Source of the DNA: a virus
Virus record (IMG/VR): IMGVR_UViG_3300045988_091501
Coordinates: 46,226 to 110,225 of that record
Direction: 5' to 3' (one strand)
Length of the DNA stretch: 64,000 nt
In this document: piece after piece, positions 16,544-39,395 of the stretch
How the letters are laid out: each line of letters begins with the position of its first letter
Position numbering within the stretch: position 1 is the first letter of the stretch
Made by a program: the position numbers and the translations under genes
The notes under the pieces: generated by a model
Database searches by the model: none
Told to the model about the DNA's origin: nothing
The model's input: only the letters and a program-made list of their open reading frames with translations

Positions 16544-16558
16544 AAAGGAGTACATATT

Positions 16559-16927: not shown

Positions 16928-16938
16928 GAGATGGTAAT

Positions 16939-21266: not shown

Positions 21267-21273
21267 AAAATCA

Positions 21274-21309
21274 CCTCCTTTATGATATGTATTATACCAT
21301 ATAAGGAGG
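21274..21309 (-). terminator. SD/anti-SD hairpin spanning the -10 box
   Basis: Minus-strand RNA CCUCCUUAU ... AUAAAGGAGG (7-9 bp with one bulge). The 3' arm is the RBS of 20877-21266. Confidence 0.45.
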
Positions 21310-21319
21310 CAATTGTCAA
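21291..21319 (-). promoter_or_regulatory. consensus sigma-A promoter
   Basis: TTGACA-17-TGGTATAAT. Confidence 0.75.
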
Positions 21320-21322: not shown

Positions 21323-21829
21323 TTAATATAATTCTTTTGCTAAAATTATTTTTTCAGATTTGATTGTTTTATTTACATCAATAATCCTCTGATTAGAAGA
21401 GCCTATAAGATGTAATTTATAATCTTTAAGAGAATCAATAAATTCCCCATCAATAAGATAATCAACAAGTCCTTCACGCAAACAATCTCTTGGAACATCT
21501 TTAATTATAAGTTGCTCATAGGTGTAACCACTCCATACAAATATTGGTTTACCAACTTCATGCCTCAGTCTTTGTAAAAACCAATAAAAATGTTCCCCTT
21601 GGTCAAATGGTTCACCACCTAAAATAGATACGCAGTCAATATATGGGCTATTACACAAAGAAATAAATTTATCTTCTATTTCTTTAGTCCATTCTTCTCC
21701 ACCTTTAAAGTCCCAAGTTTCTTGATTAAAACAACCTTTGCAATGATGAGAACAACCTTGTACAAATAAAGAACACGCTATACCAATACCATTTACAACA
21801 TCCATATCTCTGATACTTGCATATCTCAT
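21323..21829 (-). CDS. nrdG: anaerobic RNR activating protein
   Basis: Radical-SAM CSHHCKGC cluster. ATG at 21829 follows AAAGGAG. Confidence 0.85.
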   Translation of the reverse strand: MRYASIRDMDVVNGIGIACSLFVQGCSHHCKGCFNQETWDFKGGEEWTKEIEDKFISLCNSPYIDCVSILGGEPFDQGEHFYWFLQRLRHEVGKPIFVWSGYTYEQLIIKDVPRDCLREGLVDYLIDGEFIDSLKDYKLHLIGSSNQRIIDVNKTIKSEKIILAKELY

Positions 21830-21832
21830 AAA

Positions 21833-21879
21833 AAACATCTCCTTTCATAGTATATATTATACCATAAAAAGAGATGTTT
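21833..21879 (-). terminator. SD/anti-SD hairpin with the -10 box in the loop
   Basis: AAACAUCUCUUU ... AAAGGAGAUGUUU (one bulge) followed by a U-run and the nrdG ATG. Confidence 0.5.
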
Positions 21880-21884
21880 GTCAA
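21856..21884 (-). promoter_or_regulatory. consensus sigma-A promoter
   Basis: TTGACA-17-TGGTATAAT, directly after the nrdD stop. Confidence 0.75.
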
Positions 21885-21889
21885 TGATT

Positions 21890-24058
21890 TTATTTAATTT
21901 CGTGATTATCTAAGTGAACAAATCTGTGAGCTATTTCATCTGTTCTTCCATCATTCCAAAAATTACTTCCAATATAACCGCAAGTACGTCTGGCTACATT
22001 CATCTTGCTATGGTCACGATTTTTGCAATTAGGACATTCCCAAATTAATTCTCCATTTTCATCAATAATTTTAATTTCACCATCATAACCACATACTTGA
22101 CAATAGTCAGATTTAGTATTGAGTTCAGCGTACATAATATTATCATAAATAAATTTTATAATATTAAGCACTGCTTGAACATTATGTGTTAAATCAGCAC
22201 ATTCAATATATGAAATTGCACCACCCAATGACAGCTCTTGAAATTTTGATTCAATGCTTAATTTATCGAATGGATTGATTTCTTCAAACACTGGAATATG
22301 ATAACTATTAGTAATATAGTTTCTATCTTTTCCGTCTAACTTAACAAAAATATCATTACCAAATCTTTCTTTTAACTTCTTAGCAAATTTATAAGTAGTG
22401 GATTCAATAGGAGAACCGTATAATGAATATCCTAAGTTATCTTGTTTTTTCCATTGCTCGCACTTGTTGTTTAAATACTGCATAATTTCAATCCCAAAAG
22501 AATGACCTTTATCATTGTTTGAATGTGATTGTTTTGTCATATATTTAACACATTCATATAAACCAGCATAACCTAAAGAAATGCTTGAATAACCACCGAA
22601 CAACAATTTATCAATAGGTTCATGTTGATTTAACCTTGCTAATGCTCCATCTTGCCATAGAATAGGTGCTACATCACTAGAAGTTCCTAATAATCTTTTA
22701 TGCCTTAACATTAAAGCCCTATGACATAACTCACAACGGTCTTCTAAAATATTCCAAAATTTATCCATATTTCCCTCGGAACTAAAAGCAACATCTGGTA
22801 AATTGATAGTTACTACACCTTGATTAAAACGACCATAAAATTTATAATTCCCTTGTTCATCTTTCCAAGGGGCTAAAAACGAACGGCATCCCATGTTAGG
22901 GAAACAATTACCTTCTTTTAATTCTTTCATTTTCTTTTCAGAAATATAGTCTGGAACAAGTCTTTTAGCCGTACATTGTGCCGATAGTTTTGTTAAATAC
23001 CAATAAGGAGAATTTTCGTGAATATTATCCTCTTCAAGAACATATAATAATTTTGGAAATGCTTGGGTTACATAAACTCCAACTTTATTCTTCATTCCTT
23101 GAATACGTTGTTTTAAAAATTCCTCAATAATCATAGCAAGTTCTTGCTTGTATTCTTTTGTTTCTCCTAAGTACATAAACACACTTAAGAAAGGAGCTTG
23201 TCCGTTTGTCGTAGACATACTGTTTATTTGATAATTAAATGTTTGCACACCATCTTCAATTTCTTTTGTTAAATCTTCCATTGCATATTTTTCTGCTTCT
23301 AAGTTGGTATTCCCACGTTTTATGTATTTATTATATGCAATATCATAACTATATTTAACAAAGGGTGCAAGATGAGATAAGCTAATGGTGCAACCACCAT
23401 ATTGTGAACTAGCGACTGCTGTAATAATTTGTGTGGCAACAGTGCAAACAGTCAAAAATCTATGTGGTTTATCAATACGAACTCCGTTAATAACTGTTCC
23501 ATTTTGCAACATATCTTCAAGATTGATTAAATCGCAATTATGCAAAGCCTTTTGACCAAAATAATCCATATCGTGAAAATGAATTATTCCTTCTTCATCG
23601 GCTTGTAAAATGTCTGGTGGCATAAGAAACCTTTTTGTAATATCTTTACTTATAATCCCAGCCATGTAATCTCTTTGAGTTGTAGCAAGTTCAGCATTTT
23701 TATTAGAGTTTTCTTTGTTTAAATATTCATTAGTACCGTTTAATAAATTGATTAAATCTTCATCTGTACTATTCTGAACATATCTTTGATATTCTCTTAC
23801 TTGTCTATAGCCCTCATATGCTTTTGCAGTATTTTTTTGTTTATATTTAATCAATTTATCAAATACCATTGATTCAATAGTATAAATTTCTACTTCTTCA
23901 ATTTGTTTTTGTAATAATTCTTGTTCGATTTCTTCTGCAATTCTTAATGCAATTTTTTCTTTAATGCCTTCTCCATATGGCATTGCTTTCATAATCGCGT
24001 TAGAAATTTTTTCTTTATTAAAAGGAACTTCCGTACAATCACGTTTAATTACATTCAT
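21890..24058 (-). CDS. nrdD: anaerobic ribonucleoside-triphosphate reductase
   Basis: 722 aa. ATP-cone N-terminus, C-terminal CQVCGY..CPNC zinc site and RRTCGYIG glycyl-radical motif. Confidence 0.9.
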   Translation of the reverse strand: MNVIKRDCTEVPFNKEKISNAIMKAMPYGEGIKEKIALRIAEEIEQELLQKQIEEVEIYTIESMVFDKLIKYKQKNTAKAYEGYRQVREYQRYVQNSTDEDLINLLNGTNEYLNKENSNKNAELATTQRDYMAGIISKDITKRFLMPPDILQADEEGIIHFHDMDYFGQKALHNCDLINLEDMLQNGTVINGVRIDKPHRFLTVCTVATQIITAVASSQYGGCTISLSHLAPFVKYSYDIAYNKYIKRGNTNLEAEKYAMEDLTKEIEDGVQTFNYQINSMSTTNGQAPFLSVFMYLGETKEYKQELAMIIEEFLKQRIQGMKNKVGVYVTQAFPKLLYVLEEDNIHENSPYWYLTKLSAQCTAKRLVPDYISEKKMKELKEGNCFPNMGCRSFLAPWKDEQGNYKFYGRFNQGVVTINLPDVAFSSEGNMDKFWNILEDRCELCHRALMLRHKRLLGTSSDVAPILWQDGALARLNQHEPIDKLLFGGYSSISLGYAGLYECVKYMTKQSHSNNDKGHSFGIEIMQYLNNKCEQWKKQDNLGYSLYGSPIESTTYKFAKKLKERFGNDIFVKLDGKDRNYITNSYHIPVFEEINPFDKLSIESKFQELSLGGAISYIECADLTHNVQAVLNIIKFIYDNIMYAELNTKSDYCQVCGYDGEIKIIDENGELIWECPNCKNRDHSKMNVARRTCGYIGSNFWNDGRTDEIAHRFVHLDNHEIK

Positions 24059-24243
24059 CTAATCCATATCTCCTTACAATCTTCTTCATCATTACTTTCC
24101 ATAAATTCCATTTGTAATAATTCTTCATCTATTTTATCATAATCATTTAGCCCATATTCCTCACATCTTATCTGTCCTCCTTCAAACCATAATAGAGCAA
24201 TTTGTTCATATGGTTGCTCTAATAAATACTCCTTTAGTGTCAT
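24055..24243 (-). CDS. hypothetical acidic protein
   Basis: 62-aa ORF, overlap-coupled to nrdD. Confidence 0.55.
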   Translation of the reverse strand: MTLKEYLLEQPYEQIALLWFEGGQIRCEEYGLNDYDKIDEELLQMEFMESNDEEDCKEIWIR

Positions 24244-24263
24244 TAGTAATTATATCCTCCTTT

Positions 24264-24974
24264 CTATTTATAAAATGTATGACCACTTTCATCTGTGAAT
24301 TGTTTAGTCCAACCATTCCATTCATTAGGACTACAATCACTTCTGAAAGCAACACAACCGTTAGTAGTGTCTTCTACCATGTAAGCATACAACAACGCAT
24401 ATACAGTTGAATCACTAATATTATCACGACCATAAGCAAATTGATTCTTTTGTGTAATCAATTCAACAGGATCAGTTGGAAATTGATCTGATTCAATCCT
24501 GTTTAAGATTACATTGGCAACGTTTACTTTACAATCAAAACTTGCTTCATGTGCTTCGGTTTCAATACATTTAAGCATCATGGTAATTTCACTCTCTGTA
24601 AACACATCATAAGGTGTTTCTGGTAAATCATCAAACTCGTAAATGTTGAACAATGCGTTGTAATATAACTGAAACCATACATATTTATCTTGGTCTTTGA
24701 TGCTTTCAATTAAATATAAGAAATGCAAACACTCTTCATTTTCTCGTTCACTTTGATTATACTCCATTTCAGAACATTTGTCAACATATTTATCATTTAG
24801 TTCATTATAGTTAATGCTTGACCTTTCAATATCCCCTTGTAAGCTCGTATTAGCCGATTCTAGGGCTTCAATTTGTCCTTGCTTAGACTTTATTGTATAG
24901 CCCATAATCATTAAAATTAGAGTCAATAAAACGATTCCTACACACTGAATAATATTATACTTCTCTATTTTCAC
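24264..24974 (-). CDS. membrane-anchored SleB-like cell-wall hydrolase
   Basis: GTG start 9 nt after GGAG. N-terminal TM, coiled coil, and C-terminal ETEAHEAS..VANVILNRIESDQFP..QKNQFAY (Hydrolase_2-like). Confidence 0.55.
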   Translation of the reverse strand: MKIEKYNIIQCVGIVLLTLILMIMGYTIKSKQGQIEALESANTSLQGDIERSSINYNELNDKYVDKCSEMEYNQSERENEECLHFLYLIESIKDQDKYVWFQLYYNALFNIYEFDDLPETPYDVFTESEITMMLKCIETEAHEASFDCKVNVANVILNRIESDQFPTDPVELITQKNQFAYGRDNISDSTVYALLYAYMVEDTTNGCVAFRSDCSPNEWNGWTKQFTDESGHTFYK

Positions 24975-24990
24975 TTTCTTCTTCTCCTTC

Positions 24991-27261
24991 TTAGTCTACT
25001 TGAGTAATAGGAACTTTTGCTTCTTCACATCTCGTCATCAGTTCTTTTAACCATGTATCACGTTCAGCATTGCCATCAATCAACAAAGCATCATTATATG
25101 TAGCCATATCACCAATATCAATTTGCATAATTTTAGAACGTGTATCAGCAACATATAATAGATTTCTATTTAACATTCTTTTGTGGCTAGGACTAACTAC
25201 ATTTAATACATATTTAGCCTCTGACCCTTGGCTTGCGTGGACACTAATACAATATGCTAACAATAAGTTTTGTAATTTAACTTTATCAAACACAATCAGT
25301 TCTTCATCAAACTGAGCAACAAGTTTCTTATCATCAAGTTCTCTAATAATACCATCTTGACCATTAAATACACTTGTTAAAGCAACGTCATCTAAACTTA
25401 ACATATTATCAGATTGTTCAATTTCTTTCCAAGAATCATATGGCAATGCTTGGTAGTCATTTTTCTTATTTAGTAATTTATCCCCAACTCTGAAAGAAAT
25501 TGTGGTTTTGTCTTTATCGACTTTTCTATCTAAGTGCATTTCATTAGGCTTTGGAGGATTGACTTCTGCTTGAATTGCATTGTTAATTCTATATGAACCT
25601 TCATCTCCTACATTAAACGGACTTAAACAAAGTATATCATGTGGCTTAACCCCTTTAGACAATAGTTTATTGTACTGTTCTACAATGGTGTCAAAAATAT
25701 TATCAGTTTGAACAAATTTGTAATTGTTATACACACTATACTCATTGTTATGTACTTTTACTATATCATTATCAAAGAACTGCTTTCCTTGTCTTACGTT
25801 TGTGGCAACAAATATGCCACCATCGGTATCATATCTAAAGATTTCATCAAGAGTAATCATAGGAACTTTGCCGCTATTGATTAAATCATTAAATACACAA
25901 CCAATTCCTACTGGCATTAACTGAGCTGGGTCGCCAACAAGAACAACTCTGATATTTGGATTCTCAATTACATTTAACATCATAAGAAAAGTAGGTAAAT
26001 CTGTCATACTCATTTCATCTACAATTAAAACGTCAGTAGAAATTTCACCATCTCTCAATGCTTTTCTATGAATAGTGCTTGCTCGACGATTAACGGACTC
26101 TGTAATTCTACGTGAAGCCTTCCCAGTCGGTGCTAATAAAGTATAAGTCATTCCATTGCTTTCCATTAGTTTAATAATTCCACGAATTGAAGTCGTTTTA
26201 CCGGAACCGGAATATCCTGCTAGAATCATAAAATTATATTTACAGAACATTTCAAGTGCTTTTCCTTGTTTTTCGGACATTGTAAAATCATCAATAGTAG
26301 TATATTGTGTCCAATCAATATCAAGTTGTGTGCTATTTGTAATCTTGTCTTTCACAAAATCAGCAACTTTACATTCGCCTTGATAAGTAGACATAATGCT
26401 TAAATCTTTTGACTTCTCATCATAATAGAATAAATCATTATTCATTGCGGTAGGAACAATTAAAGGTTCAAGTTCAGGCACATTATACTCTTCCATGATA
26501 TAATAATATAAATCATTTCCATTAAGTCTTGTACTGCCCTCTTGTTCATTTCTTTCCAACACACTTAAAATCAAATAAGCGCATCTCATTTCACTTACTT
26601 TTAAGTCTTTTCTTAATTCCATAATCGCTCTATCAGCAAATTCAAAAGAACGACCAAGTGTTGAGATTAAAACTTTATAAGGATTGGATTGAATTTCTTT
26701 TGCAATATGTTCTTCATCAAGATATTCTTCAATTAACTTCTTGCAGTCACTTACATCAAATTTGTAATCCTTGAAATGTTGAATAATACCAAGATACTTA
26801 TATTTTTCAAGTAAGTTTCTTGCATAAGCACCAAGATACACTTCTCCGACACCTTTGATTCTACTTACATCAATAACATCTTTGCCTTGAGTTAAAATCA
26901 ATTCAATGAAATCAGGATATGCTTCTAAGATATTATCAGCAATTCTTTCACTTGTAGTACAATCCATAAGAATTTCTTTCTTTTGGTCTAAAGTAAGCGT
27001 TGACACATCAAAGTTGCTCATAGATGGAACTGATAAAATTTTATACGTTCCACCGTATCTTTTGTCATAGGCAATTTCTTCAATTTCAATTTCATAGTCT
27101 TTATTTTCATCTATATATGAATCACCACCTTTCGTTGAAAAGGTAAAGTAAGGACTTAATTTGACACTATCATTGTGGTCAATAGGACTCCATGAAAATA
27201 TTCTATAATCATCTTTCTTAAAACAACATTTTACACATCTTGCTTTTAATGTAATACTCAT
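24991..27261 (-). CDS. RecD-like SF1 DNA helicase
   Basis: GYSGSGKTT (Walker A), LIVDEMSM (Walker B), VGDPAQL, ISVHASQGSE. Confidence 0.75.
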   Translation of the reverse strand: MSITLKARCVKCCFKKDDYRIFSWSPIDHNDSVKLSPYFTFSTKGGDSYIDENKDYEIEIEEIAYDKRYGGTYKILSVPSMSNFDVSTLTLDQKKEILMDCTTSERIADNILEAYPDFIELILTQGKDVIDVSRIKGVGEVYLGAYARNLLEKYKYLGIIQHFKDYKFDVSDCKKLIEEYLDEEHIAKEIQSNPYKVLISTLGRSFEFADRAIMELRKDLKVSEMRCAYLILSVLERNEQEGSTRLNGNDLYYYIMEEYNVPELEPLIVPTAMNNDLFYYDEKSKDLSIMSTYQGECKVADFVKDKITNSTQLDIDWTQYTTIDDFTMSEKQGKALEMFCKYNFMILAGYSGSGKTTSIRGIIKLMESNGMTYTLLAPTGKASRRITESVNRRASTIHRKALRDGEISTDVLIVDEMSMTDLPTFLMMLNVIENPNIRVVLVGDPAQLMPVGIGCVFNDLINSGKVPMITLDEIFRYDTDGGIFVATNVRQGKQFFDNDIVKVHNNEYSVYNNYKFVQTDNIFDTIVEQYNKLLSKGVKPHDILCLSPFNVGDEGSYRINNAIQAEVNPPKPNEMHLDRKVDKDKTTISFRVGDKLLNKKNDYQALPYDSWKEIEQSDNMLSLDDVALTSVFNGQDGIIRELDDKKLVAQFDEELIVFDKVKLQNLLLAYCISVHASQGSEAKYVLNVVSPSHKRMLNRNLLYVADTRSKIMQIDIGDMATYNDALLIDGNAERDTWLKELMTRCEEAKVPITQVD

Positions 27262-27524
27262 TTTCTACTCCAATTCTCTAAATAATTAGCTATTTCTGTT
27301 ATGTTATTTCTTGATTCAATATACTTGTCTATACTTTCTTGAATAAATTGAATAACAGCTTTTGGGGCACAAGAAATTTTTACTGAACTCATATAAGAAT
27401 CATATGAACGTATTGTAGTCCATAGAAACTTCTTTTTTACTTTTACATCACATTGCACTCCTAAACTATCTGCGTTAATATTTACTTTAAAAGTATAACC
27501 ATCTTTCTTTATAATCTTAGTCAT
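27258..27524 (-). CDS. hypothetical protein
   Basis: 88-aa ORF, ATGA-coupled to the helicase gene. Confidence 0.6.
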   Translation of the reverse strand: MTKIIKKDGYTFKVNINADSLGVQCDVKVKKKFLWTTIRSYDSYMSSVKISCAPKAVIQFIQESIDKYIESRNNITEIANYLENWSRK

Positions 27525-27690
27525 AATATTTATATTTATTCTCCTTCTTTTTATTTACAACTTTAAATCCTTTTCTTGCTTTATATTTATCACAGGTCTG
27601 ACATAATTTCTTCTGTTCAGCATTTCTTCCTTTGTCACATTTACCTTTACAAATATAATAGATACAAGGTGCTAATCTTTCTTTAGACAT
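27517..27690 (-). CDS. 57-aa Cys-rich (zinc-ribbon-like) protein, absent from the ORF track
   Basis: MSKERLAPCIYYICKGKCDKGRNAEQKKLCQTCDKYKARKGFKVVNKKKENKYKYYD. AAAGGAG RBS. First gene after the promoter at 27720. Confidence 0.6.
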   Translation of the reverse strand: MSKERLAPCIYYICKGKCDKGRNAEQKKLCQTCDKYKARKGFKVVNKKKENKYKYYD

Positions 27691-27693
27691 AAA

Positions 27694-27743
27694 AAATATC
27701 TCCTTTCATTGATATAGTAATTATACCATGAAAGGAGATATTT
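27694..27743 (-). terminator. 16-bp perfect SD/anti-SD hairpin with the -10 box in its loop
   Basis: 27694-27709 is the exact reverse complement of 27728-27743. The 3' arm AUGAAAGGAGAUAUUU is followed by UUU and the ATG. Confidence 0.6.
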
Positions 27744-27748
27744 GTCAA
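27720..27748 (-). promoter_or_regulatory. consensus sigma-A promoter
   Basis: TTGACA-17-TGGTATAAT. Confidence 0.75.
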
Positions 27749-27756
27749 GTAAAAAT

Positions 27757-28212
27757 TTACCATCTTAATTCAAAATATTTATTATAAATCTTATTCCATT
27801 CTGCTTGTGTAATTCCACCTCTATCATATTTTTCTTCTAAATTATAAAGGCATTGTGCAAGATAACGGTCTGTATGCCAATTACTAAATAAAGGCTCATA
27901 TTCATTGTTGATAAGTACACTTAATTGTCCCCCAAATGTGCTTGATACAGATATTCTACCTTTTAAGTATTGACATAACTTGGCTTTGGTCTTATCAGAA
28001 ACATTGTAGCCACGTTTCTCCATTTCTGTAATGACTAAATTACAATACAATCTAAAATGATCCAAGTCATAATTCATAATAGGATTGATAAGAATTTGAT
28101 TAGTTGCCCCTTTTTCATAAATATCTTTAGCAATAGCAACACATTCTCTTAACTGAGAACACAACTGTTGTCTAGGTAATACATCTAACAAATCATAATG
28201 CCATAATCTCAT
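27757..28212 (-). CDS. DenV / pyrimidine-dimer glycosylase-family protein (TIGR02328-like)
   Basis: The N-terminus MRLWHYDLLDVLPRQQLCSQLREC matches the MRLWH..LP.QQL..QhREC signature from memory. Confidence 0.5.
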   Translation of the reverse strand: MRLWHYDLLDVLPRQQLCSQLRECVAIAKDIYEKGATNQILINPIMNYDLDHFRLYCNLVITEMEKRGYNVSDKTKAKLCQYLKGRISVSSTFGGQLSVLINNEYEPLFSNWHTDRYLAQCLYNLEEKYDRGGITQAEWNKIYNKYFELRW

Positions 28213-28215
28213 ATT

Positions 28216-28602
28216 TTACTCCTTTACAATATACTTACTCAACATATCAATTTCTTCTTGTAATTCTTTAATGTGAGATTCAATTTCTTCCCATTCATCT
28301 GTTTCAAAATTATAATAAAAACTTGCTGGGAAATTACCATTATAATCAATATTATTTGTTCTATTGTCATTAAATATTTTATTCAGATAGTTTAGTGCTT
28401 CCTTAGATTTACAAACCACATAAGCACTGTCTTGTGATAAACGATAATCATTATCAAGCGGAAGTAATGTTCCATAGTCATTATATGCAAACAAGTCTTT
28501 ACCATACTTATCTTGTAATTCTTTGCTTTCATATCTTTCACATTCATTTTCATACTCAAATTCTTTACCATCAAATGCAATATAAATTGTCTTCTCTGTC
28601 AT
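28216..28602 (-). CDS. hypothetical protein
   Basis: 128-aa ORF. Confidence 0.65.
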   Translation of the reverse strand: MTEKTIYIAFDGKEFEYENECERYESKELQDKYGKDLFAYNDYGTLLPLDNDYRLSQDSAYVVCKSKEALNYLNKIFNDNRTNNIDYNGNFPASFYYNFETDEWEEIESHIKELQEEIDMLSKYIVKE

Positions 28603-28606
28603 ATTA

Positions 28607-28771
28607 TTACCCCTTTCTAATATGCCGAATTATTTTATCTAATAAATTAAGTTGCGCGAATAGCTCTTGCCTATATGTTCCCTCTGCTCTGTCGTAACTA
28701 CCAATTCCATATAAATGAGCATCAATATCATCTTTTTGCTCATAAAGCCAAATTAGTAAATCTTTATCCAT
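28607..28771 (-). CDS. 54-aa hypothetical protein, absent from the ORF track
   Basis: AAGGAGG RBS. Translation verified codon by codon (MDKDLLIWLYEQKDD...). Confidence 0.55.
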   Translation of the reverse strand: MDKDLLIWLYEQKDDIDAHLYGIGSYDRAEGTYRQELFAQLNLLDKIIRHIRKG

Positions 28772-28785
28772 ATTATTTTTCCTCC

Positions 28786-29187
28786 TTAAATAATTCCAAT
28801 CGTTTCGTCTTCATAATTACATTTCTTTGCTTTTTCAAACATATCTAAATATTTTTCATCAAATTCAAATGTATCTTTTTTAATATTTGCAATTAATGTC
28901 AAGCATCTATTATACATTTCTGTTGTAAAATCTTTGCAATTTATATTATTTCTATTCCTATTAAAAATATAATAAATTAAATTAGGAGTTCTCTTAATTG
29001 CTTCTGATACCAAAGGCTCTAAAAATAAATGTAAAACAAAATCTTTGGTCAATTCTACTTGTGACTCACCGTAAGTATAATATTTATCATAATATGCTTG
29101 CATAGCTGAAAGTTTGTCTTTATATAATTCTTTGTTGTACCAACCTTTGCAAATTAGCATAATATCAATTAAAGTATTATCTGTCAT
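28786..29187 (-). CDS. hypothetical protein
   Basis: 133-aa ORF. Confidence 0.65.
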   Translation of the reverse strand: MTDNTLIDIMLICKGWYNKELYKDKLSAMQAYYDKYYTYGESQVELTKDFVLHLFLEPLVSEAIKRTPNLIYYIFNRNRNNINCKDFTTEMYNRCLTLIANIKKDTFEFDEKYLDMFEKAKKCNYEDETIGII

Positions 29188-29348
29188 TCAATCACCTCCA
29201 CTTCTAAGTTTTCACATCTCAATCTACTAGCAATTTGTTTACTAAATATTTGATATTGATAAGGATGACGCAGAGCTATACATTCTTCTGCTAATCGTTC
29301 ACACGCTTCTTTTAATAATTCTACATCATCTGTTAAAATCTTAATCAT
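29184..29348 (-). CDS. 54-aa hypothetical protein, absent from the ORF track
   Basis: AGGAGG lies 7 nt upstream. TAATG and ATGA overlaps with both neighbours. Confidence 0.55.
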   Translation of the reverse strand: MIKILTDDVELLKEACERLAEECIALRHPYQYQIFSKQIASRLRCENLEVEVIE

Positions 29349-29524
29349 TATCGTACCTCCTGTAACTTTTCATATAATTCTTCATACATTTCATTATTGA
29401 AATAAACCACTCTACTAGCAAGCATCTTAATAATTTCTTTAGCCTCGTCTAATGTTTGAATATCATCTATTGCTTTTGGGTCATGTTTCATAATACGTTT
29501 GTATAAACTATAAATATTGTTCAT
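29348..29524 (-). CDS. 58-aa hypothetical protein, absent from the ORF track
   Basis: MNNIYSLYKRIMKHDPKAIDD..., verified codon by codon. The RBS is weak. Confidence 0.45.
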   Translation of the reverse strand: MNNIYSLYKRIMKHDPKAIDDIQTLDEAKEIIKMLASRVVYFNNEMYEELYEKLQEVR

Positions 29525-29527
29525 AAT

Positions 29528-29710
29528 TTAACCCTTCCATTCACAGTGTAATACATTTTTATGGAAATTCATTGCACATTCTTTGCACAATAAAATTTTG
29601 GTTGAATGGTCAAGATATTCACCTTCCCATCTAACTGTATATTCTTTTGCCTCATTAAAATCTGTAATTTCTTTTCCACATTTGTCACAATGATATTTAG
29701 TTACTGTCAT
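29528..29710 (-). CDS. zinc-ribbon protein
   Basis: Start MTVTKYHCDKCGK after GGAAAGGAG. A second CKEC pair is present. Confidence 0.6.
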   Translation of the reverse strand: MTVTKYHCDKCGKEITDFNEAKEYTVRWEGEYLDHSTKILLCKECAMNFHKNVLHCEWKG

Positions 29711-29715
29711 AATAA

Positions 29716-29765
29716 AAATCTCCTTTCCATTTGATACTTGTATTATATCATAGGAAAGGAGATTT
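29716..29765 (-). terminator. 13-bp perfect SD/anti-SD hairpin with the -10 box in its loop
   Basis: 29716-29728 is the reverse complement of 29753-29765. The 3' arm GGAAAGGAGAUUU is followed by UUAUUAUG. Confidence 0.55.
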
Positions 29766-29770
29766 GTCAA
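29742..29770 (-). promoter_or_regulatory. consensus sigma-A promoter
   Basis: TTGACA-17-TGATATAAT, 3 nt after the polymerase stop. Confidence 0.75.
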
Positions 29771-29773
29771 GAG

Positions 29774-32700
29774 TTAATCTATACTTTTTAATATTGTATA
29801 ATCTCTTAAAATTTCTTCTTGTTCTTCACTTTCAACCCACTTGTCATTATTGTCTTTAACACGTTTATTTTGTGTTCTAAAAGCAGTTTTAATTATGTCC
29901 CCACTCTTACATGGGTGGTCTTCATAATTACGTTTATTTGCCTTAATAAAGGTGTTCTCACCATCATTAACGTGATATAAAGTAACAAATGGAGTGTTGT
30001 ATTGATTTAACTCTACTTCTGATACAATGTAAATATTATCATCTGTTGATTTATCAATCAATTCTGTATAACCACTAAGTCCTAATTGATAAGCCATTGT
30101 TTCAAGTAATGTAATAGGTTTATACATATACTTTGTAGAAACAAAATCAACAATTCCTTGATAATTATTTAGAATATATTCCATTAAAGAAACATTATCA
30201 ATTTCTTTGAACATTTTTTCTGTTTCTTTACCACAAAATTGTTTAATTTCATGTATATTTAATCCAAAGTTTATACATTCATCTTTCTTTAATTGTTTAC
30301 ATTCTCTTAATCTTTTCATAATAGAATCAACATCATTATAAATATTCCATTGATTTATTACATAATTCACATCCCCATATTCTGCAAAATAATCTAACTT
30401 AAATAAAATATCAATACTCTTTTTATTCAAATCACTTTGTAATAAATCTTTAAAAATAAAGAACAACCCATCATATTCATTTTTATGTTGACTCATATTG
30501 TATAAGATTTGTGGTGCTACCTTTTGCATATTCTTTATACTTGCCATAGTTTGATTGATACAATTGTTTTCTCTATCAATGGAAAATTGTCTATTGTCAT
30601 CACCAAATGCAATAGGTTTTAATTTGATGCCACGTTTAAGCATTTCTTTCTTTAATGCAGTTACCTTATCTTTGTCACCTTTGTTAGTATATCTTTGTAA
30701 TGTTACTTTATAAAATTCTAATGGATAATAAGCCTTTTGCCAAGCAAGTGTAACACTATCAATAGCCATACAATAAGCATGAGCAGAATTGAAACCATAA
30801 GAAGCACTATCCTCAATTACTTGCCATACTTTTTCAGCCATTTTCATAGCATTATCTTTGTCTGTTGTTTCTTTTGTGTTAAGTATAGCTTGTGCAAAAT
30901 TAGGAATAAACTTTTCTTTTGCTTGTGTAATCACATAATGTTTCTTTTTACTAATAGCTTTAATGATTGTATATGTTTCACTCATAGGAAATCCCGCAAA
31001 TCCTAATACTTTCATTAAATGCTCTTGATATAAAATAAATGAGCTTGAACAATATTGGTCTTGAATAAGGTCATCAAAAGCCTTTATTCCATAATCAAAA
31101 TGTTTGCGTTGTTCAAATGTTTTATACATTGATTGAAATGATGGTCTAATACCAGCTACAAATTGTGTCAACTCTGAAATGTTCTTTGGTTTAAATCTCA
31201 TAACTTTTTCAGTAGATTTTTGTTGCTCACATTGATTCACACACATTGTATAACCATTAGCATAAATATCCCAAGTCTTACTATCATTGTCAATCTTAGC
31301 AAGCAATTCGTTTACAGATAATGGTTCAATTCCTATCTCTTTATAAATATCATAGGTCAATCCAATAGAATCTACAATGAGGTAGTCCTGCTTCAACATG
31401 CCGAAAGCATCAATAGTGCCACTTTCAATAACCGCAACGAAAGTTTCTTTAGCTTTATCTCCTTGTGATTCAGATTTTACCATGATAACCCCGACTTCTT
31501 CTACAACATCAAAGTCTGCGCAAATTGTGCCGCAAGGATGTGCTTTCAAATTATCTACAATTCCCATGTATTGTTGACAACCATCAATTAAATATCCATA
31601 TTTTTCTTTATCAACATAATCATAAATATCAATAAATTCTTTTTCATCATCATCTGCGTGTTTTAAAGCATTTTCATATTTACTAATTTGCTTTGTTACA
31701 GTATTGGCTAATTGTGGATCAAGATTATATGCTCTTGAATACATTTTAAATGCAGATTTATAATGCAATGTACCTAAAGCCAATAGGTCAAATGTTCCTT
31801 CTTCCCCAATTATATCTTTTTGCGCTTGTATAAATGGTTCTCTTGATGATACATTGTGGTCAATGTCTGGCGGTGTGTGAGAATCTAATACTCTTTCTTT
31901 TGTTAAAAATCTTTCAGAATACATAAGCACTGGTGAATTAACTTTATCTACTTTTGTAAATCTAAATAATTTATTCAAATAACAAGATACGCCACTACCT
32001 CTACCACTAGGAGTCAATATCCCACCATATTCATCAATTCCACGTTTCATTATTTCATAAGTATCAATGAAATAATCAGCCATGTTACATCCTTCAATTT
32101 CGGCTATATCATGCTTAATTTCTTTAATATATTCATCATACTTATCTTTGTTAATATCATTAGATTGCCTTTCCCATTCATATCTAAGGATATTCTCAAA
32201 AACTTCATTTCTTTGTTCTTGTGTTAAATCACGATATTTTTTAGCCACAGGAACTTTTAATGACCTATCCAATATAATATCATCAAATGTAAGTATAATA
32301 TTAGTATTCTCTATTGCTTCTGTAATTTCTTCATCACTTAAAATTCCTTGTTCTTTAAATCTATTAAAGAATGTTTCATAACTTGGTAAATCCATATACC
32401 AACCTTGTTCATCTTCATAACTAATCTTATTAGATTTTAACAAGTCGTCTCTATCTGCCATTTGTGATTCAGTAATAACATGACTGTCAGTTCCAGCTAT
32501 AATTGGAATGTTATATTTATAATGCAATTCCATAATATGAGCATTTATTTCTTTTTGTGCTTGTGTATTATGAGGTTGCACTTCAAGATAAAAATCTGTG
32601 AAATGATTAAATAATTTAAGAACAATTTCATCAATTTTTGAATAGTCAACTACATTAGCATTATCACCAAATGGCAAATCTCTATCATCTATTGTATATT

Positions 32701-33190
32701 TATTCCAAAAGGCAATACAAGCCGATGTAACGAATACATCATCTTTTGGCAATGACAAAAGAATATCTAAATCCATTCTATTCTTATAATAATACCCAGT
32801 TTTAAATGACTCATAGATTGCTCTATTTATTTTCTTACGACCATTTTCATTCTTTGCTAATAAAATAATATGACAATTACTTGAATCAGAAGAATTTCTG
32901 TCTTTTACCCAATATGCTTCTGTACCAAATACGAACTTGATTGGTTTATAATTAGGATTTGATTCAAGATTCTTTTTATTAAATTTTTCAAGGTCATCAT
33001 AAATCTTAAAATAATTTCCTTGCCATCCGTGTTCAACAGTTGAATAAATTGTTGGTATACCTTGGTCTGCTGATTTCTTATATTCTTTAAAATAATCCAT
33101 AGGCACAAGTGGAGAATCTTTATTATATCTATGTGATAAACTCGTATGTTTGTGATAATTACAAAATGATAAAATTTTACAATTATTCAT
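29774..33190 (-). CDS. DNA polymerase III alpha (DnaE-like) with PHP domain
   Basis: About 1138 aa. N-terminal YHKHTSLSH and GTDSH PHP motifs and size support the call. Start MNNCKIL at 33190 overlaps the HNH stop (ATGAATAA). Confidence 0.75.
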   Translation of the reverse strand: MNNCKILSFCNYHKHTSLSHRYNKDSPLVPMDYFKEYKKSADQGIPTIYSTVEHGWQGNYFKIYDDLEKFNKKNLESNPNYKPIKFVFGTEAYWVKDRNSSDSSNCHIILLAKNENGRKKINRAIYESFKTGYYYKNRMDLDILLSLPKDDVFVTSACIAFWNKYTIDDRDLPFGDNANVVDYSKIDEIVLKLFNHFTDFYLEVQPHNTQAQKEINAHIMELHYKYNIPIIAGTDSHVITESQMADRDDLLKSNKISYEDEQGWYMDLPSYETFFNRFKEQGILSDEEITEAIENTNIILTFDDIILDRSLKVPVAKKYRDLTQEQRNEVFENILRYEWERQSNDINKDKYDEYIKEIKHDIAEIEGCNMADYFIDTYEIMKRGIDEYGGILTPSGRGSGVSCYLNKLFRFTKVDKVNSPVLMYSERFLTKERVLDSHTPPDIDHNVSSREPFIQAQKDIIGEEGTFDLLALGTLHYKSAFKMYSRAYNLDPQLANTVTKQISKYENALKHADDDEKEFIDIYDYVDKEKYGYLIDGCQQYMGIVDNLKAHPCGTICADFDVVEEVGVIMVKSESQGDKAKETFVAVIESGTIDAFGMLKQDYLIVDSIGLTYDIYKEIGIEPLSVNELLAKIDNDSKTWDIYANGYTMCVNQCEQQKSTEKVMRFKPKNISELTQFVAGIRPSFQSMYKTFEQRKHFDYGIKAFDDLIQDQYCSSSFILYQEHLMKVLGFAGFPMSETYTIIKAISKKKHYVITQAKEKFIPNFAQAILNTKETTDKDNAMKMAEKVWQVIEDSASYGFNSAHAYCMAIDSVTLAWQKAYYPLEFYKVTLQRYTNKGDKDKVTALKKEMLKRGIKLKPIAFGDDNRQFSIDRENNCINQTMASIKNMQKVAPQILYNMSQHKNEYDGLFFIFKDLLQSDLNKKSIDILFKLDYFAEYGDVNYVINQWNIYNDVDSIMKRLRECKQLKKDECINFGLNIHEIKQFCGKETEKMFKEIDNVSLMEYILNNYQGIVDFVSTKYMYKPITLLETMAYQLGLSGYTELIDKSTDDNIYIVSEVELNQYNTPFVTLYHVNDGENTFIKANKRNYEDHPCKSGDIIKTAFRTQNKRVKDNNDKWVESEEQEEILRDYTILKSID

Positions 33191-33746
33191 TACTACCTTC
33201 CCTTTCCCACCAATAACCATATGCTGATTTTTGTTTTCCACTAATTACACCATTTATATTAGATGAACATATTTTATTATTTTTACAAATTTTAATTGAA
33301 TTTAAGTATTCAATTGCTTCTTTTGAAGAGTTGAATAATTTAATTTTTTTATGTGTTATTTTATCACACATCCATATTTTTTTCTTTTTTGAAATTGATA
33401 AATTTTTATTATGATTTCCATAATTATTATTATATTTTTGTGTGCCCCATTCTAAATTATAATAATTATTATTTAATTTATTTTCATCTTTATGACATAC
33501 AATTGGATAATTATTTGGATTCTCAACAAACGCTAAAGCCACTAATCTATTTATACGATATGTTCTCATATCATTATTCCCATATCTTAAAGTTATTTGT
33601 TCATATCCATATTTATTTATATGTTTTGTAAGCCATTTATTTGTATTTGTTGACCAAACATTGCCATCATTTGTTATATAAAACATTTTTGAATCATCTA
33701 TTGGTTTAATATATGTATCATCAAGTAAATTTGGTACTAATTTCAT
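33183..33746 (-). CDS. HNH homing endonuclease (NUMOD4-like)
   Basis: FYITNDGNVWS (NUMOD4-like), VCHKDENKLNNNYYNLEWGT (HNH). Sits immediately upstream of the polymerase gene. Confidence 0.75.
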   Translation of the reverse strand: MKLVPNLLDDTYIKPIDDSKMFYITNDGNVWSTNTNKWLTKHINKYGYEQITLRYGNNDMRTYRINRLVALAFVENPNNYPIVCHKDENKLNNNYYNLEWGTQKYNNNYGNHNKNLSISKKKKIWMCDKITHKKIKLFNSSKEAIEYLNSIKICKNNKICSSNINGVISGKQKSAYGYWWEREGSNE

Positions 33747-33780
33747 AACTCATCCCTTATCTCCTTTCTATATTTACTCA

Positions 33781-33809
33781 ATTATATCACAAAAGACCAC
33801 CTTTGTCAA
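33781..33809 (-). promoter_or_regulatory. consensus sigma-A promoter
   Basis: TTGACA-17-TGATATAAT. Confidence 0.75.
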
Positions 33810-33820
33810 GTGGTCTTTTT
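33791..33820 (-). terminator. terminator hairpin with the -35 hexamer in its loop
   Basis: AAAAAGACCAC-UUGACAAAG-GUGGUCUUUU on the minus-strand RNA. Confidence 0.65.
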
Positions 33821-33823
33821 AAT

Positions 33824-34753
33824 CTATTTTAATCCATTAAAAATATGTGCAATAACATCAATAGTCCAACCATTTCCAATACATTTATATCTTTGTGTAT
33901 CAGATAATCCTTCTGTATAATTGTCTGGTAGTGTTTGCGCTCGCTCACATTCAATAGGCGTTGGTTTATAATATTCACCATTTTCGTATTGAATATTAGT
34001 TGCTCCGCTATTTGAGATATTTTGTCCTGTCATTAAACATCTCATTTTTTGGTCTAAAGTTCTAATTGCTTTATGCGCCTTTTCATGTGCAAGAGTTCCT
34101 TCTTGTTTATTATTTAATCTATCTGTTATATTATATTGTTCTTTTTCTTCTGTTGGTTGAACAATATCTTTTAAAGTTAAACCTTTGTCTATTGGTTGTG
34201 ATACATTCGGGATGTTTGTCCAGTATAGTCTTTTTCTACTTTGCGCAGAAAGCAATTTGCTATCAATCATAATAGGTTCTACGCCTAATGCTTGAGTAAT
34301 AACATCTTGCCATTTTTTGCACATCTTTACATTTTCCAATAAAAAATATTTTGGTTTGCTTTCTTTTAATACTCTTACATATTCCCAAAATAAATAAGAA
34401 TATCCATCAAATTCAAATCCTTTTTCTTTCAAATCTAAATATTGTTCAAGTGATGTAATTTCTATATTGTCTTTTGTACTTGCTCCATTCATTCTTCCGG
34501 CAAACGAAAAATTTTGACAAGGACTACCCCCAATTAGCAAGTCTAAATAACCATTATATTGTGTTCCATCAACATCTCTCACATCCCCAATTTCTGTTAT
34601 ATCGTTCCAATTTTTTTGTGCTATTTTAATTGCATAATCACAAATTTCACTAGCATGATAACCATTAACTTTAATTCCAGCTCTGTCTAAAGCACATCTG
34701 CCCCCCCCAATTCCATCAAAAAGACTTAATACATTTAATCCATTTTCATTCAT
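33824..34753 (-). CDS. DNA (cytosine-5)-methyltransferase
   Basis: LFDGIGGG (motif I), GGSPCQNFS (IV), LLENV (VI), QSRKR (VIII), GNGW (X). Confidence 0.9.
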   Translation of the reverse strand: MNENGLNVLSLFDGIGGGRCALDRAGIKVNGYHASEICDYAIKIAQKNWNDITEIGDVRDVDGTQYNGYLDLLIGGSPCQNFSFAGRMNGASTKDNIEITSLEQYLDLKEKGFEFDGYSYLFWEYVRVLKESKPKYFLLENVKMCKKWQDVITQALGVEPIMIDSKLLSAQSRKRLYWTNIPNVSQPIDKGLTLKDIVQPTEEKEQYNITDRLNNKQEGTLAHEKAHKAIRTLDQKMRCLMTGQNISNSGATNIQYENGEYYKPTPIECERAQTLPDNYTEGLSDTQRYKCIGNGWTIDVIAHIFNGLK

Positions 34754-34781
34754 TTTTTATATCTCCTTTCATATTAAAATT

Positions 34782-34797
34782 ATGTTATTTGTAACAT
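34782..34797 (-). promoter_or_regulatory. operator-like palindrome ATGTTA-N4-TAACAT (leader copy)
   Basis: The 6-bp half-sites are exact. Confidence 0.45.
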
Positions 34798-34810
34798 AAT
34801 CCATCAATTT

Positions 34811-34826
34811 ATGTTAATTATAACAT
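34811..34826 (-). promoter_or_regulatory. operator-like palindrome ATGTTA-N4-TAACAT overlapping the -10 box
   Basis: Exact half-sites centred on TATAAT of the methyltransferase promoter. Confidence 0.45.
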
Positions 34827-34845
34827 AAAAAGGAGCTTTTGTCAA
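34817..34845 (-). promoter_or_regulatory. consensus sigma-A promoter
   Basis: TTGACA-17-TGTTATAAT. 64 nt from the -10 to the methyltransferase ATG. Confidence 0.75.
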
Positions 34846-34854
34846 GCCCCTTTT
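34828..34854 (-). terminator. terminator hairpin with part of the -35 hexamer in its loop
   Basis: AAAAGGGGCUU-GACAA-AAGCUCCUUUU (one mismatch). Confidence 0.55.
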
Positions 34855-39389: not shown

Positions 39390-39395
39390 CATGTA

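What the first reader, a model, noticed from the sequence alone, without database searches (positions are those of the whole stretch)
27691..27748. Promoter nested in a 16-bp perfect SD/anti-SD hairpin, with the -10 box as the loop
27694-27709 (aaatatctcctttcat) is the exact reverse complement of 27728-27743. On the minus-strand RNA this reads 5' AAAUAUCUCCUUUCAU, an 18-nt loop, AUGAAAGGAGAUAUUU, then UUU-AUG. The 5' arm occupies the promoter spacer and touches the -35. The loop contains TATAAT. The 3' arm is the SD of the 57-aa ORF at 27517-27690, and the stem runs into a U6 tract. A transcript arriving from upstream would meet a terminator-like hairpin, and if it read through, its SD would be sequestered. 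A transcript started at this promoter (predicted TSS about 27713, inside the loop) carries only the 3' arm and has a free SD. Translation of the cistron would therefore depend on which promoter made the mRNA.
Basis: partly seen in the sequence, partly recalled or inferred. Interest (0 to 1): 0.7.

Follow-up and report, generated by a model that had tools for sequence, protein, structure and literature searches.

The report
Phage promoter inside a terminator hairpin
A strong phage promoter sits inside an RNA hairpin that should stop or translationally silence transcripts arriving from upstream while leaving its own transcripts translatable; the design is real and recurs, but it is a compact variant of arrangements already known from T4-type phages, B. 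subtilis sigG and IS elements.

Summary
On the minus strand a 12/12 consensus promoter with extended -10 (TTGACA 27748-27743, 17-nt spacer, TGgTATAAT) lies inside a perfect 16-bp inverted repeat. The 5' arm is the spacer, the loop holds the -10, the 3' arm is the SD of the 57-aa ORF, and U6 precedes the ATG. It is not chance (1/200 simulations) and not unique. The window has 21 perfect promoters, all on the minus strand. Four share this geometry (class B: 27748, 29770, 21884, 21319). Five have a classical terminator hairpin with the -35 in its loop (class A). The arms differ between cassettes but stay complementary. A U-run after the SD occurs in 4/4 class B genes and 2/54 others. Predicted SD accessibility is 0.4-0.9 in local transcripts and about 1e-4 in read-through transcripts. 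In relatives the cassettes are islands of identity between swapped genes. The same spacer/SD pairing recurs in unrelated phage contigs but hardly in a bacterial-genome sample. The best reading is a self-insulating terminator-promoter-RBS cassette. It is analogous to T4-type PeSLs and works like T4 e/I-TevI, B. subtilis sigG and IS10. It is a new variant of a known kind. All function is inferred.

The parts
27757..28212 (-). Upstream gene, a DenV-like pyrimidine-dimer DNA glycosylase of 151 aa. Its stop codon (27759-27757) ends 8 nt before the -35.
   Evidence: (PF03013, E = 9e-15)
27743..27748 (-). -35 hexamer TTGACA. Its last A (27743) is the first base of the 5' arm.
27728..27743 (-). 5' arm AAAUAUCUCCUUUCAU (anti-SD), which occupies the promoter spacer
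27720..27728 (-). Extended -10, TGgTATAAT (hexamer 27725-27720), in the apical part of the hairpin
27711..27727 (-). Inner 6-bp extension of the stem (27727-27722 with 27716-27711) around the 5-nt loop 27721-27717. The predicted TSS, about 27713 (A), lies in its 3' half. A27710 is bulged.
   Evidence: the TSS is inferred from the standard -10-to-+1 distance
27694..27709 (-). 3' arm AUGAAAGGAGAUAUUU, containing the SD (AAAGGAG 27706-27700)
27691..27696 (-). U6 tract. It is both the terminator-like tail and the SD-AUG spacer.
27517..27690 (-). Downstream 57-aa Cys-rich ORF (ATG 27690-27688), the first gene of the unit that continues into an 88-aa ORF and a RecD2-like helicase
29716..29770 (-). 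Second class B cassette. The -35 is at 29770-29765, the 13-bp perfect arms are 29765-29753 and 29728-29716, the -10 (29747-29742) is in the loop, U5 follows, and the ATG is at 29710 (60-aa zinc-ribbon-like ORF). The -35 starts 3 nt after the Pol III alpha stop codon.
21833..21884 (-). Third class B cassette, between nrdD and nrdG. It is a 22-bp stem with G.U pairs and the -10 at its tip, followed by U6 and the ATG at 21829.
21270..21319 (-). Fourth class B cassette. The spacer AUUGCCUCCUU pairs with the SD AAGGAGGUGAU, followed by U4 and the ATG at 21266.
33791..33820 (-). Class A cassette (example). It is a terminator hairpin with the -35 TTGACA in its loop and the U-tract in the promoter spacer. 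Others are at 57104-57131, 47183-47211, 34828-34854 and 54912-54940.

Best explanation
The element is one copy of a recurring, compact 'self-insulating' expression cassette of a novel AT-rich phage. The phage carries Pol III alpha, a RecD2-like helicase and NrdDG, and is probably a virus of an anaerobic low-GC Firmicute. Four functions overlap within about 55 nt. (1) A consensus sigma-A-type promoter with an extended -10 starts transcription at about 27713, inside the hairpin's apical region. The local mRNA therefore carries only the 3' arm, has a free SD 23 nt from its 5' end, and is translated. (2) RNA polymerase arriving from the upstream unit (promoter 29770, ending with the denV-like gene) transcribes both arms. 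The 22-bp hairpin forms directly ahead of U6 and acts as an intrinsic terminator or attenuator. (3) Any transcript that escapes termination has its SD locked in the stem, so the 57-aa cistron cannot be initiated independently. (4) The cassette is conserved as a unit and serves as a recombination joint between exchangeable gene modules. Shown here: the anatomy, its non-randomness and recurrence, the complementarity kept between divergent arms, the link with the U-run, the thermodynamic contrast, and the mosaic boundaries. Inferred: the TSS, termination in vivo, the translational effect and the recombination role.
For: The promoter is 12/12 with TG, one of 21 perfect copies, all on the minus strand (27 matches at up to 1 mismatch against 2.5 expected). 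Four promoters pair their spacer with their own SD. The sum of own spacer-leader duplex energies is -185 kcal/mol against a permuted mean of -143 (sd 11); 7 of 20,000 permutations reach it. U-run after the SD: 4/4 against 2/54, p = 3.5e-5. Terminator scores of class B (16.0, 5.8, 15.6, -1.1, -1.6) are at least those of class A hairpins. L021:1608 has a 15-bp hairpin around the -10 followed by U5 with the SD outside, so hairpin plus U-tract is selected without SD involvement. Conversely L079, L067 and L042 in unrelated phages have 11-14-bp spacer:SD stems without a U-tract, so SD masking is selected in its own right. SD accessibility is 0.42-0.88 in local RNA and about 1e-4 in read-through RNA. 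Natural variants of the 5' arm are C->U or A->G changes that keep G.U pairs. Sense RNA stays at -19 to -24 kcal/mol while the antisense fold falls to -7.7 to -14.6. The cassettes are 95-97% identical islands flanked by unrelated genes in contig ..087976. Outside the clade, 6/53 spacers have at least 10 nt of perfect complementarity to their own leader (0.35 expected) and 3 have at least 12 nt (0.02 expected). A further 13-bp case was found at a promoter not selected by the search pattern (L073:7709). A bacterial-genome sample gave 1/54. Precedents for each function exist: PMC2839356, PMC4122927, PMC3014915, PMC2988022, PMC5942855.
Against: There are no transcript-end or expression data. Orthologues are too similar to show double compensatory changes: 0 of 22 pairs, because the 3' arm is invariant. 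The one-sided wobble changes are also what AT-biased mutation would give (roughly p = 0.2 by my estimate). One relative carries a disruptive T->C (L021:2465). The stem is long and AT-rich, and the strict terminator scan did not call it. Two of five class B hairpins score slightly below the E. coli-calibrated threshold. The upstream and embedded promoters are of the same class, so the benefit of silencing read-through is not obvious.
Confidence: 0.65

Rival explanations
1. Translational insulation only. The hairpin does not terminate transcription to any useful extent. Its selected role is solely to mask the SD on read-through RNA, as for T4 gene e or sigG, and the U-run is incidental.
For: Unrelated phages have spacer:SD stems without a U-tract (L079, L067, L042). 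The stems are long, AT-rich and atypical for terminators, and the strict scan finds none. The accessibility contrast is huge.
Against: The U-run is tightly linked to the hairpin in this clade (4/4 against 2/54). It follows the stem rather than the SD in L021:1608. The same genome uses plain terminator hairpins fused to promoters (class A).
Confidence: 0.15
2. Double-strand-specific RNase (RNase III) processing site. The roughly 22-bp stem on read-through RNA is cleaved, which separates the transcription units and destroys or frees the SD. The parallels are the T7 early intercistronic sites and the SP82 early mRNA sites in B. subtilis; the latter is from my own knowledge (Panganiban and Whiteley 1983) and was not checked here.
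For: The stem length (22 bp, about two helical turns) and the near-perfect pairing suit RNase III. The position is intercistronic.
Against: Nothing specific supports it. Stem lengths vary from 13 to 22 bp between cassettes. The U-run association is unexplained by this model. It is not exclusive of the main model.
Confidence: 0.08
3. DNA-level element. The inverted repeat is either an operator for a dimeric repressor that shuts off early promoters, or a cruciform that hides or exposes the -10 according to supercoiling.
For: The repeat is centred on the -10. The arms are AT-rich and near-perfect with a short centre, which favours extrusion. Many promoters in the window share a short ATG..CAT symmetry around the -10.
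Against: Arm sequences and arm spacing differ between cassettes (loops of 18, 24, 3 and 5 nt), so no common half-site exists. Natural changes are one-sided and keep only sense-strand RNA pairing; they would be mismatches in a cruciform or an asymmetric operator. The 3' arm content is simply the SD.
Confidence: 0.05
4. No selected function. The repeat would be a by-product of cassette duplication or recombination, or of template-switch perfection of a quasi-palindrome, with CTCC/GGAG simply being the only G+C-rich words available in a 31% GC genome.
For: The genome uses GGAG/CTCC cores in several other hairpins (36455-36482, class A 57122 and 34845). Cassettes do move between contexts.
Against: Complementarity extends well beyond the CTCC/GGAG core, with different flanks in each cassette, and it recurs independently in unrelated phages far above cross-pair controls. 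It is rare in bacterial genomes. It is linked to a U-run.
Confidence: 0.05

Closest known systems
PeSL (promoter-early stem-loop) composite promoter-terminator cassettes of T4-like myoviruses (Arbiol et al. 2010, PMC2839356; Comeau et al. 2014, PMC4122927)
   Same: Both have a near-perfect TTGACA-N17-TATAAT promoter fused to a stem-loop placed in different registers, including overlap with the -35 or the -10. Both occupy the whole short intergenic space from the upstream stop to the SD and ATG. Both occur in many copies per genome and are found at the boundaries of gene swaps between close relatives. Promoter and terminator activity were shown for PeSLs with lacZ fusions.
   Different: This is an unrelated phage lineage with a Gram-positive style of promoter (TG-extended -10, AAAGGAG SD). 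There is no sequence similarity. PeSL stems are short G(n)/C(n)-type hairpins, and the SD is described as a separate 3' module. Here the 3' arm is the SD itself, the 5' arm is an anti-SD written into the spacer, the entire -10 is the loop, and the U-tract doubles as the SD-AUG spacer.
Promoter placed inside an RBS-sequestering hairpin: T4 genes e, soc, 49, I-TevI/II/III, segB; Aeh1 mobE (reviewed in PMC3014915, PMC2988022)
   Same: Read-through transcripts from upstream promoters form a helix that buries the SD and/or AUG. Transcripts from the promoter embedded in the 5' part of the structure lack the 5' strand and are translated. For gene e the reported effect is about 100-fold.
   Different: In T4 the embedded promoter is a late (gp55) promoter, so the device is a temporal switch. 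Here the embedded and upstream promoters are the same consensus sigma-A type. The T4 hairpins are not described as terminators and are not repeated mobile cassettes.
B. subtilis sigG read-through hairpin (PMC5942855 and references 9 and 52 therein)
   Same: It is a Firmicute example. [quoted passage not shown]
   Different: It is a single chromosomal locus with a different sigma factor for the internal promoter. It is not a terminator and is not repeated or mobile.
IS10/IS50 'fold-back inhibition', protection from external promoters (Davis, Simons and Kleckner 1985; Schulz and Reznikoff 1991). This is from my own knowledge; I could not retrieve these papers here.
   Same: An inverted repeat spans the resident promoter. 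Only transcripts entering from outside contain both arms and have the RBS sequestered. The rationale is autonomy of a mobile module from its context.
   Different: It belongs to a transposase gene of an IS element, not a phage gene cassette. It has no U-tract or terminator role, and its promoters are weak.

Membership tests
PeSL-type composite promoter-terminator cassette | Near-consensus sigma-70-type promoter (TTGACA-N17-TATAAT) | tested here: met
   12/12 match plus TG
PeSL-type composite promoter-terminator cassette | Stable stem-loop overlapping or adjoining the promoter, within the short interval between the upstream stop and the downstream SD/ATG | tested here: met
   Hairpin 27743-27694, -24.2 kcal/mol. 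The intergenic space is 66 nt and the upstream stop lies 8 nt before the -35.
PeSL-type composite promoter-terminator cassette | Many copies per genome with the stem-loop in several registers | tested here: met
   The window has 21 perfect promoters: 4 class B (-10 in the loop) and 5 class A (-35 in the loop). In the clade there are 70 unique cassettes, of which 18 are B-like and 17 A-like.
PeSL-type composite promoter-terminator cassette | Cassettes lie at the boundaries of gene replacements or indels between close relatives | tested here: met
   29770-29711 and 27751-27678 are 95-97% identical islands between non-homologous genes in the comparison with L021.
PeSL-type composite promoter-terminator cassette | Found in the hyperplastic regions of T4-like myoviruses, the lineage in which the family was defined | tested here: not met
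   The closest Pol III alpha relatives (at most 37% identity) are gut 'Bacteriophage sp.' records, Geobacillus E3, and Bacillus and Lactococcus phages, none of them T4-like. The element is therefore an analogue, not a homologous member.
PeSL-type composite promoter-terminator cassette | Measured promoter and terminator activity | not testable with these tools
   Needs reporter fusions or term-seq.
Promoter-internal RBS-sequestering hairpin (T4 e / I-TevI / sigG / IS10 type) | The SD and/or start codon is buried in a stable helix on upstream-initiated RNA | tested here: met
   P(SD unpaired) is about 1e-4 in read-through RNA. This is a thermodynamic prediction only.
Promoter-internal RBS-sequestering hairpin (T4 e / I-TevI / sigG / IS10 type) | The TSS of the embedded promoter lies 3' of the 5' arm, so local RNA cannot form the helix | tested here: met
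   The -10 is at 27725-27720, which puts +1 at about 27713, 15 nt downstream of the end of the 5' arm. P(SD unpaired) is 0.42 in local RNA. The TSS is predicted, not mapped.
Promoter-internal RBS-sequestering hairpin (T4 e / I-TevI / sigG / IS10 type) | The embedded promoter belongs to a different temporal or sigma class than the upstream promoters (T4 and sigG cases) | tested here: not met
   The upstream promoter 29770 and the embedded promoter are the same consensus type.
Promoter-internal RBS-sequestering hairpin (T4 e / I-TevI / sigG / IS10 type) | Measured difference in translation between read-through and local transcripts | not testable with these tools
   Needs translational fusions or toeprinting.
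Intrinsic (Rho-independent) terminator | Stable hairpin followed immediately by a U-tract | tested here: met
   The core stem is -21.3 kcal/mol, the tail is UUUUUUAUG, and the d-score is 16.0. The U-run is specific to class B genes.
Intrinsic (Rho-independent) terminator | Canonical shape: G+C-rich stem of about 5-15 bp and a loop of 3-8 nt | tested here: inconclusive
   The strict scan found no terminator in 24000-34000. The stem is 22 bp and AT-rich with a 5-nt loop once the inner pairs are counted.
Intrinsic (Rho-independent) terminator | RNA 3' ends mapped in the U-tract | not testable with these tools
   Needs term-seq or in vitro transcription.
Palindromic operator of a dimeric DNA-binding protein | A common half-site sequence and fixed half-site spacing across the regulated promoters, with both arms conserved symmetrically | tested here: not met
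   The five cassette families have different arms and different spacings. The changes are one-sided and keep only RNA G.U pairs.
Any curated RNA family (Rfam 15) | Match at the family's gathering score | tested here: not met
   The window contains only two tRNAs at gathering score. The best hits on 27600-27850 are generic hairpins far below threshold.

The most novel reading that the evidence does not exclude
The spacer-encoded anti-SD is a general, convergently evolved device of phages of Gram-positive-type hosts that makes each gene module both transcriptionally and translationally autonomous. In this reading it also provides a factor-free global shut-off. Once transcription of the early region comes mainly from read-through, for example after antitermination or from still unidentified middle promoters, every class B-led cistron is transcribed but translationally silent. 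The device would thus serve as insulator, timer and recombination joint at once.
Probability: 0.2. Interest if true: 0.65.

Novelty: new variant of a known kind. Interest (0 to 1): 0.45.

Why it matters
If it works as inferred, it shows how far regulatory functions can be superimposed. The terminator of one unit, the promoter of the next, an anti-SD, the SD and the SD-AUG spacer all fit within about 55 nt, using the only sequence-free part of a promoter (the spacer) to encode the anti-SD. It extends the PeSL idea of mobile promoter-terminator joints that shuffle gene modules from T4-like phages of Gram-negative hosts to an unrelated, uncultured phage clade. Unrelated phage contigs suggest convergent evolution. 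It matters for phage genome annotation, because operon boundaries and expression cannot be read from promoters alone. It also offers a natural template for compact insulated expression cassettes in synthetic biology. It does not open a new mechanistic category.

Tried and rejected
- Megablast of 26000-30000 against GenBank phages found nothing, so no annotated close relative exists.
- Distant homologues of the upstream gene (L011-L014, 35-44% identity) have no promoter or hairpin at the equivalent place. They give no deep comparative signal.
- Loci fetched with the 360-aa protein (L034-L041) contain no consensus promoter at all. They seem to share only that gene and were dropped.
- The strict terminator scan called nothing, not even the class A hairpins, because their loops exceed 8 nt. 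I therefore scored the hairpins by hand.
- Orthologue covariation gave no double compensatory changes, so I did not build a covariance model. The evidence for pairing rests on paralogous and convergent cassettes with cross-pair controls instead.
- My first U-run table misplaced the nrdG start at 21838 instead of 21829. This was corrected.
- My first accessibility figure for L021:1608 used a false SD inside the arm. This was corrected.
- The literature look-ups for IS10 fold-back inhibition failed. That precedent is cited from memory only.
- I rejected the operator and cruciform readings, and the reading of a single peculiar hairpin, for the reasons given under the rival explanations.

Full report
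**1. The observation**

Read on the minus strand, the region is:

...TAA(stop, 27759-27757) atttttac TTGACA(27748-27743) aatatctcctttcaTGg TATAAT(27725-27720) tactatatca ATGAAAGGAGATATTT TTT ATG(27690).

- The promoter scan scores it 12 of 12 with an extended -10 TG.
- The two 16-nt arms (27743-27728 and 27709-27694) are perfectly complementary.
- Six more pairs inside the 18-nt 'loop' reduce it to 5 nt. The result is a 22-bp stem with one bulged A, at -24.2 kcal/mol.
- The 101-nt context folds at -31.5 kcal/mol, z = -6.5, and none of 200 shuffles folds as well.
- The T-run is 27696-27691.
- The 57-aa ORF is real and evolves mostly by synonymous changes among relatives.
- A perfect inverted repeat with arms of at least 16 nt and a loop of at most 60 nt arose in 1 of 200 Markov simulations of the window. 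The window has six repeats with arms of at least 13 nt against 0.28 expected.

**2. It is not a singleton**

The window (30.7% GC) has a late or structural block on the + strand (1-18192). This converges with a long minus-strand block that carries 21 perfect TTGACA-N17-TATAAT promoters, nearly all with TG and all on the minus strand. At up to one mismatch there are 27 matches against 2.5 expected. Folding each promoter shows two recurring fusions of a promoter with a hairpin.

- **Class B** has the geometry of the finding. The spacer is the 5' arm, the -10 is in the loop, the SD is the 3' arm, and a U-run precedes the ATG. It occurs at promoters 27748, 29770 (13-bp perfect arms), 21884 (between nrdD and nrdG) and 21319.
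- **Class A** is a classical hairpin with the -35 hexamer in the loop and the U-tract in the spacer. It occurs at 57122, 54930, 47201, 34845 and 33809.

Each class B spacer pairs with its own leader better than with the leaders of the other promoters, which also contain AAAGGAG. The summed duplex energy is -185 against a permuted mean of -143 +/- 11, and 7 of 20,000 permutations reach it. Class B promoters begin 3-8 nt after the upstream stop codon, and class A promoters 7-17 nt after it.

**3. Context and relatives**

The neighbouring genes are a DenV-like glycosylase, a RecD2-like helicase, Pol III alpha, NrdD and NrdG. There is no close GenBank relative. Megablast finds nothing, and Pol III alpha is at most 37% identical to gut phage records, Geobacillus E3, and Bacillus and Lactococcus phages. 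IMG/VR holds about ten close relatives.

In these relatives the promoter boxes and the 3' arm never change. The 5' arm shows C->T changes at three positions. The 21319-type arm differs from the perfect version by C->T and A->G. All of these keep G.U pairs in the sense RNA.

- **Strand asymmetry:** the sense hairpins stay at -19 to -24 kcal/mol while the antisense fold drops to between -7.7 and -14.6. One disruptive T->C is the exception.
- **Pair count:** on five distinct orthologues, 110 of 110 cells are paired over 22 pairs. Three pairs change on one side and none on both.

This is consistent with an RNA structure on the transcribed strand. On its own it is weak evidence, because AT-biased mutation would give similar changes.

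**4. Two discriminating natural variants**

- **Terminator-like shape without the SD.** In contig ..087976 (L009/L021), a promoter at L021:1608 has a perfect 15-bp hairpin joining the spacer to the post--10 sequence, followed by U5. The SD lies downstream of the hairpin and stays accessible in read-through RNA (0.86). So hairpin plus U-tract is kept without any SD role.
- **SD masking without the terminator-like tail.** A pattern scan of viral contigs (TTGACA..CTCCTT..TATAAT) found unrelated phages (36-47% GC) whose spacers pair with their own SD over 10-14 nt using quite different flanks: L042, L079, L106, L094, L096 and L067. Three of them (L079, L067, L042) have no U-tract.

The excess over cross-pairing controls is large. 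Six of 53 hits have at least 10 nt of complementarity against 0.35 expected, and 3 have at least 12 nt against 0.02 expected. A further 13-bp case (L073:7709) was found at a promoter not selected by the pattern. The same pattern in a sample of bacterial genomes gave 1 of 54 (0.11 expected) and no class A hairpins.

SD masking and termination are therefore separable. Each appears to be selected, and the four cassettes in the window combine them.

**5. Support for each step of the mechanism**

- **Termination:** a U-run of at least 4 between SD and start occurs in 4/4 class B genes and in 2/54 other SD-led genes, p = 3.5e-5. Hairpin and tail scores of class B (16.0, 5.8, 15.6, -1.1, -1.6) match or exceed those of class A.
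- **Translation dependent on promoter of origin:** with the TSS at the standard distance (27713), the SD is predicted unpaired with probability 0.42-0.88 in local RNA and about 1e-4 in read-through RNA for all four class B cassettes. Eight other promoters in the window give ratios of 0.5-2.6.
- **Read-through is plausible:** no terminator-like site lies between promoter 29770 and this element.
- **Modularity:** compared with L021, the cassettes 29770-29711 and 27751-27678 are 95-97% identical islands. The genes immediately downstream are unrelated: MLKEIE... in place of the 57-aa and 88-aa ORFs, and MFTVIRPPH... in place of the zinc-ribbon ORF.

**6. Comparison with what is known**

- **PeSLs of T4-like phages.** These are composite cassettes with a near-perfect sigma-70 promoter and a stem-loop in one of five registers, including overlap with the -35 or the -10. 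They end in an SD and ATG. Promoter and terminator activities have been demonstrated, and they have a role in modular shuffling (PMC2839356, PMC4122927).
- **T4 genes e, soc, 49, I-TevI/II/III and segB, and Aeh1 mobE.** A promoter sits inside an RBS-sequestering hairpin, so only locally started RNA is translated (PMC3014915, PMC2988022).
- **B. subtilis sigG.** It has a hairpin of 20 or more bp that silences read-through RNA from the upstream operon (PMC5942855).
- **IS10/IS50 fold-back inhibition.** This has the same logic (my own knowledge, not retrieved here).

The present element works like all of these and has the anatomy and behaviour of a PeSL. It is not a homologous member, because the phage lineage is different and there is no sequence similarity. 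It also differs in three ways:

- the SD itself is the 3' arm, and the anti-SD is written into the 17-nt spacer;
- the U-tract doubles as the SD-AUG spacer;
- the embedded promoter is of the same class as the upstream promoters.

No Rfam family matches.

**7. Verdict**

The element is a self-insulating terminator-promoter-RBS cassette, one of a modular family. It is a new variant of a known kind, of moderate interest. All functional steps remain inferred: the TSS, termination, translational silencing and the recombination role.

Noticed in passing
window 39295-39390 (minus strand), downstream of promoter 39425-39397: An 18-nt perfect inverted repeat, which extends to a hairpin of about 30 bp (-42.1 kcal/mol, z = -5.9). 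It starts within about 5 nt of the predicted TSS and ends just before the SD (AAAGGAGG) of the next ORF. It could be a 5'-terminal mRNA stabiliser or an RNase III site. Rfam returns only sub-threshold generic hairpin hits. It is conserved in relatives.
   Followed up: partly
window 36455-36482: A perfect 14+14 palindrome with no loop, AAAAGGAGTGAATA/TATTCACTCCTTTT, between two minus-strand genes and without a promoter. It is followed by UUUUAUU and then, 5 nt later, by the real SD and the ATG at 36437. It is a terminator-like hairpin that again uses a GGAG/CTCC core.
   Followed up: partly
window 27632-27659 (+ strand): An 11/12 promoter-like match (TTGTCA-16-TATAAT) lies antisense inside the 57-aa ORF. 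If active, it would send an antisense RNA across the start codon and the palindrome. It may simply be a by-product of the coding sequence.
   Followed up: no
window 24756-24784 (minus strand): A perfect TTGACA-N17-TATAAT without the TG lies inside a long open frame (ORF 24264-24974). It is conserved in all relatives and no SD follows it. It could be an internal promoter or a chance match within coding sequence.
   Followed up: no
window 41396-41784 (minus strand): Promoter 41784 drives a non-coding stretch containing tRNA-Ile(TAT), which is unusually long at 90 nt, and tRNA-Leu(TAA). The promoter has a short 8-9-bp stem around its -10, and both arms differ between the window and relatives (ATATGTGT/ACATATAT against ATATATGTG/CACATATAT).
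   Followed up: no
window 21829-24058: nrdD and its activase gene nrdG, which I would expect to be co-transcribed, are separated by a class B terminator-promoter cassette (21884-21833).
   Followed up: partly
window 54947-56029; loci L034-L041: This 360-aa protein is 85-91% identical in larger phage contigs (up to 182 kb) that contain no consensus promoters within 20 kb. That suggests horizontal transfer of this single gene between unrelated phages.
   Followed up: partly
window promoters 59296, 57122, 47201, 46903, 29770, 27748: Six of the 21 promoters share the leader motif TATCAA(A)TG(A/G)AAGGAG between the -10 and the SD. This suggests that the promoter-leader units are paralogous copies spread by recombination.
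   Followed up: no
L021:1608-1672 (contig IMGVR_UViG_3300045988_087976): The hairpin-only (terminator-type) cassette precedes a DNA methyltransferase-like gene (DLILTSPPYN motif) that is absent from the window.
   Followed up: no
window 34753-34845 (minus strand): The class A promoter 34845 has a leader of about 57 nt with a second stable hairpin (GGAUUAUGUUAC...AACAUAAUUU) ahead of the SD. The leader sequence differs between relatives.
   Followed up: no
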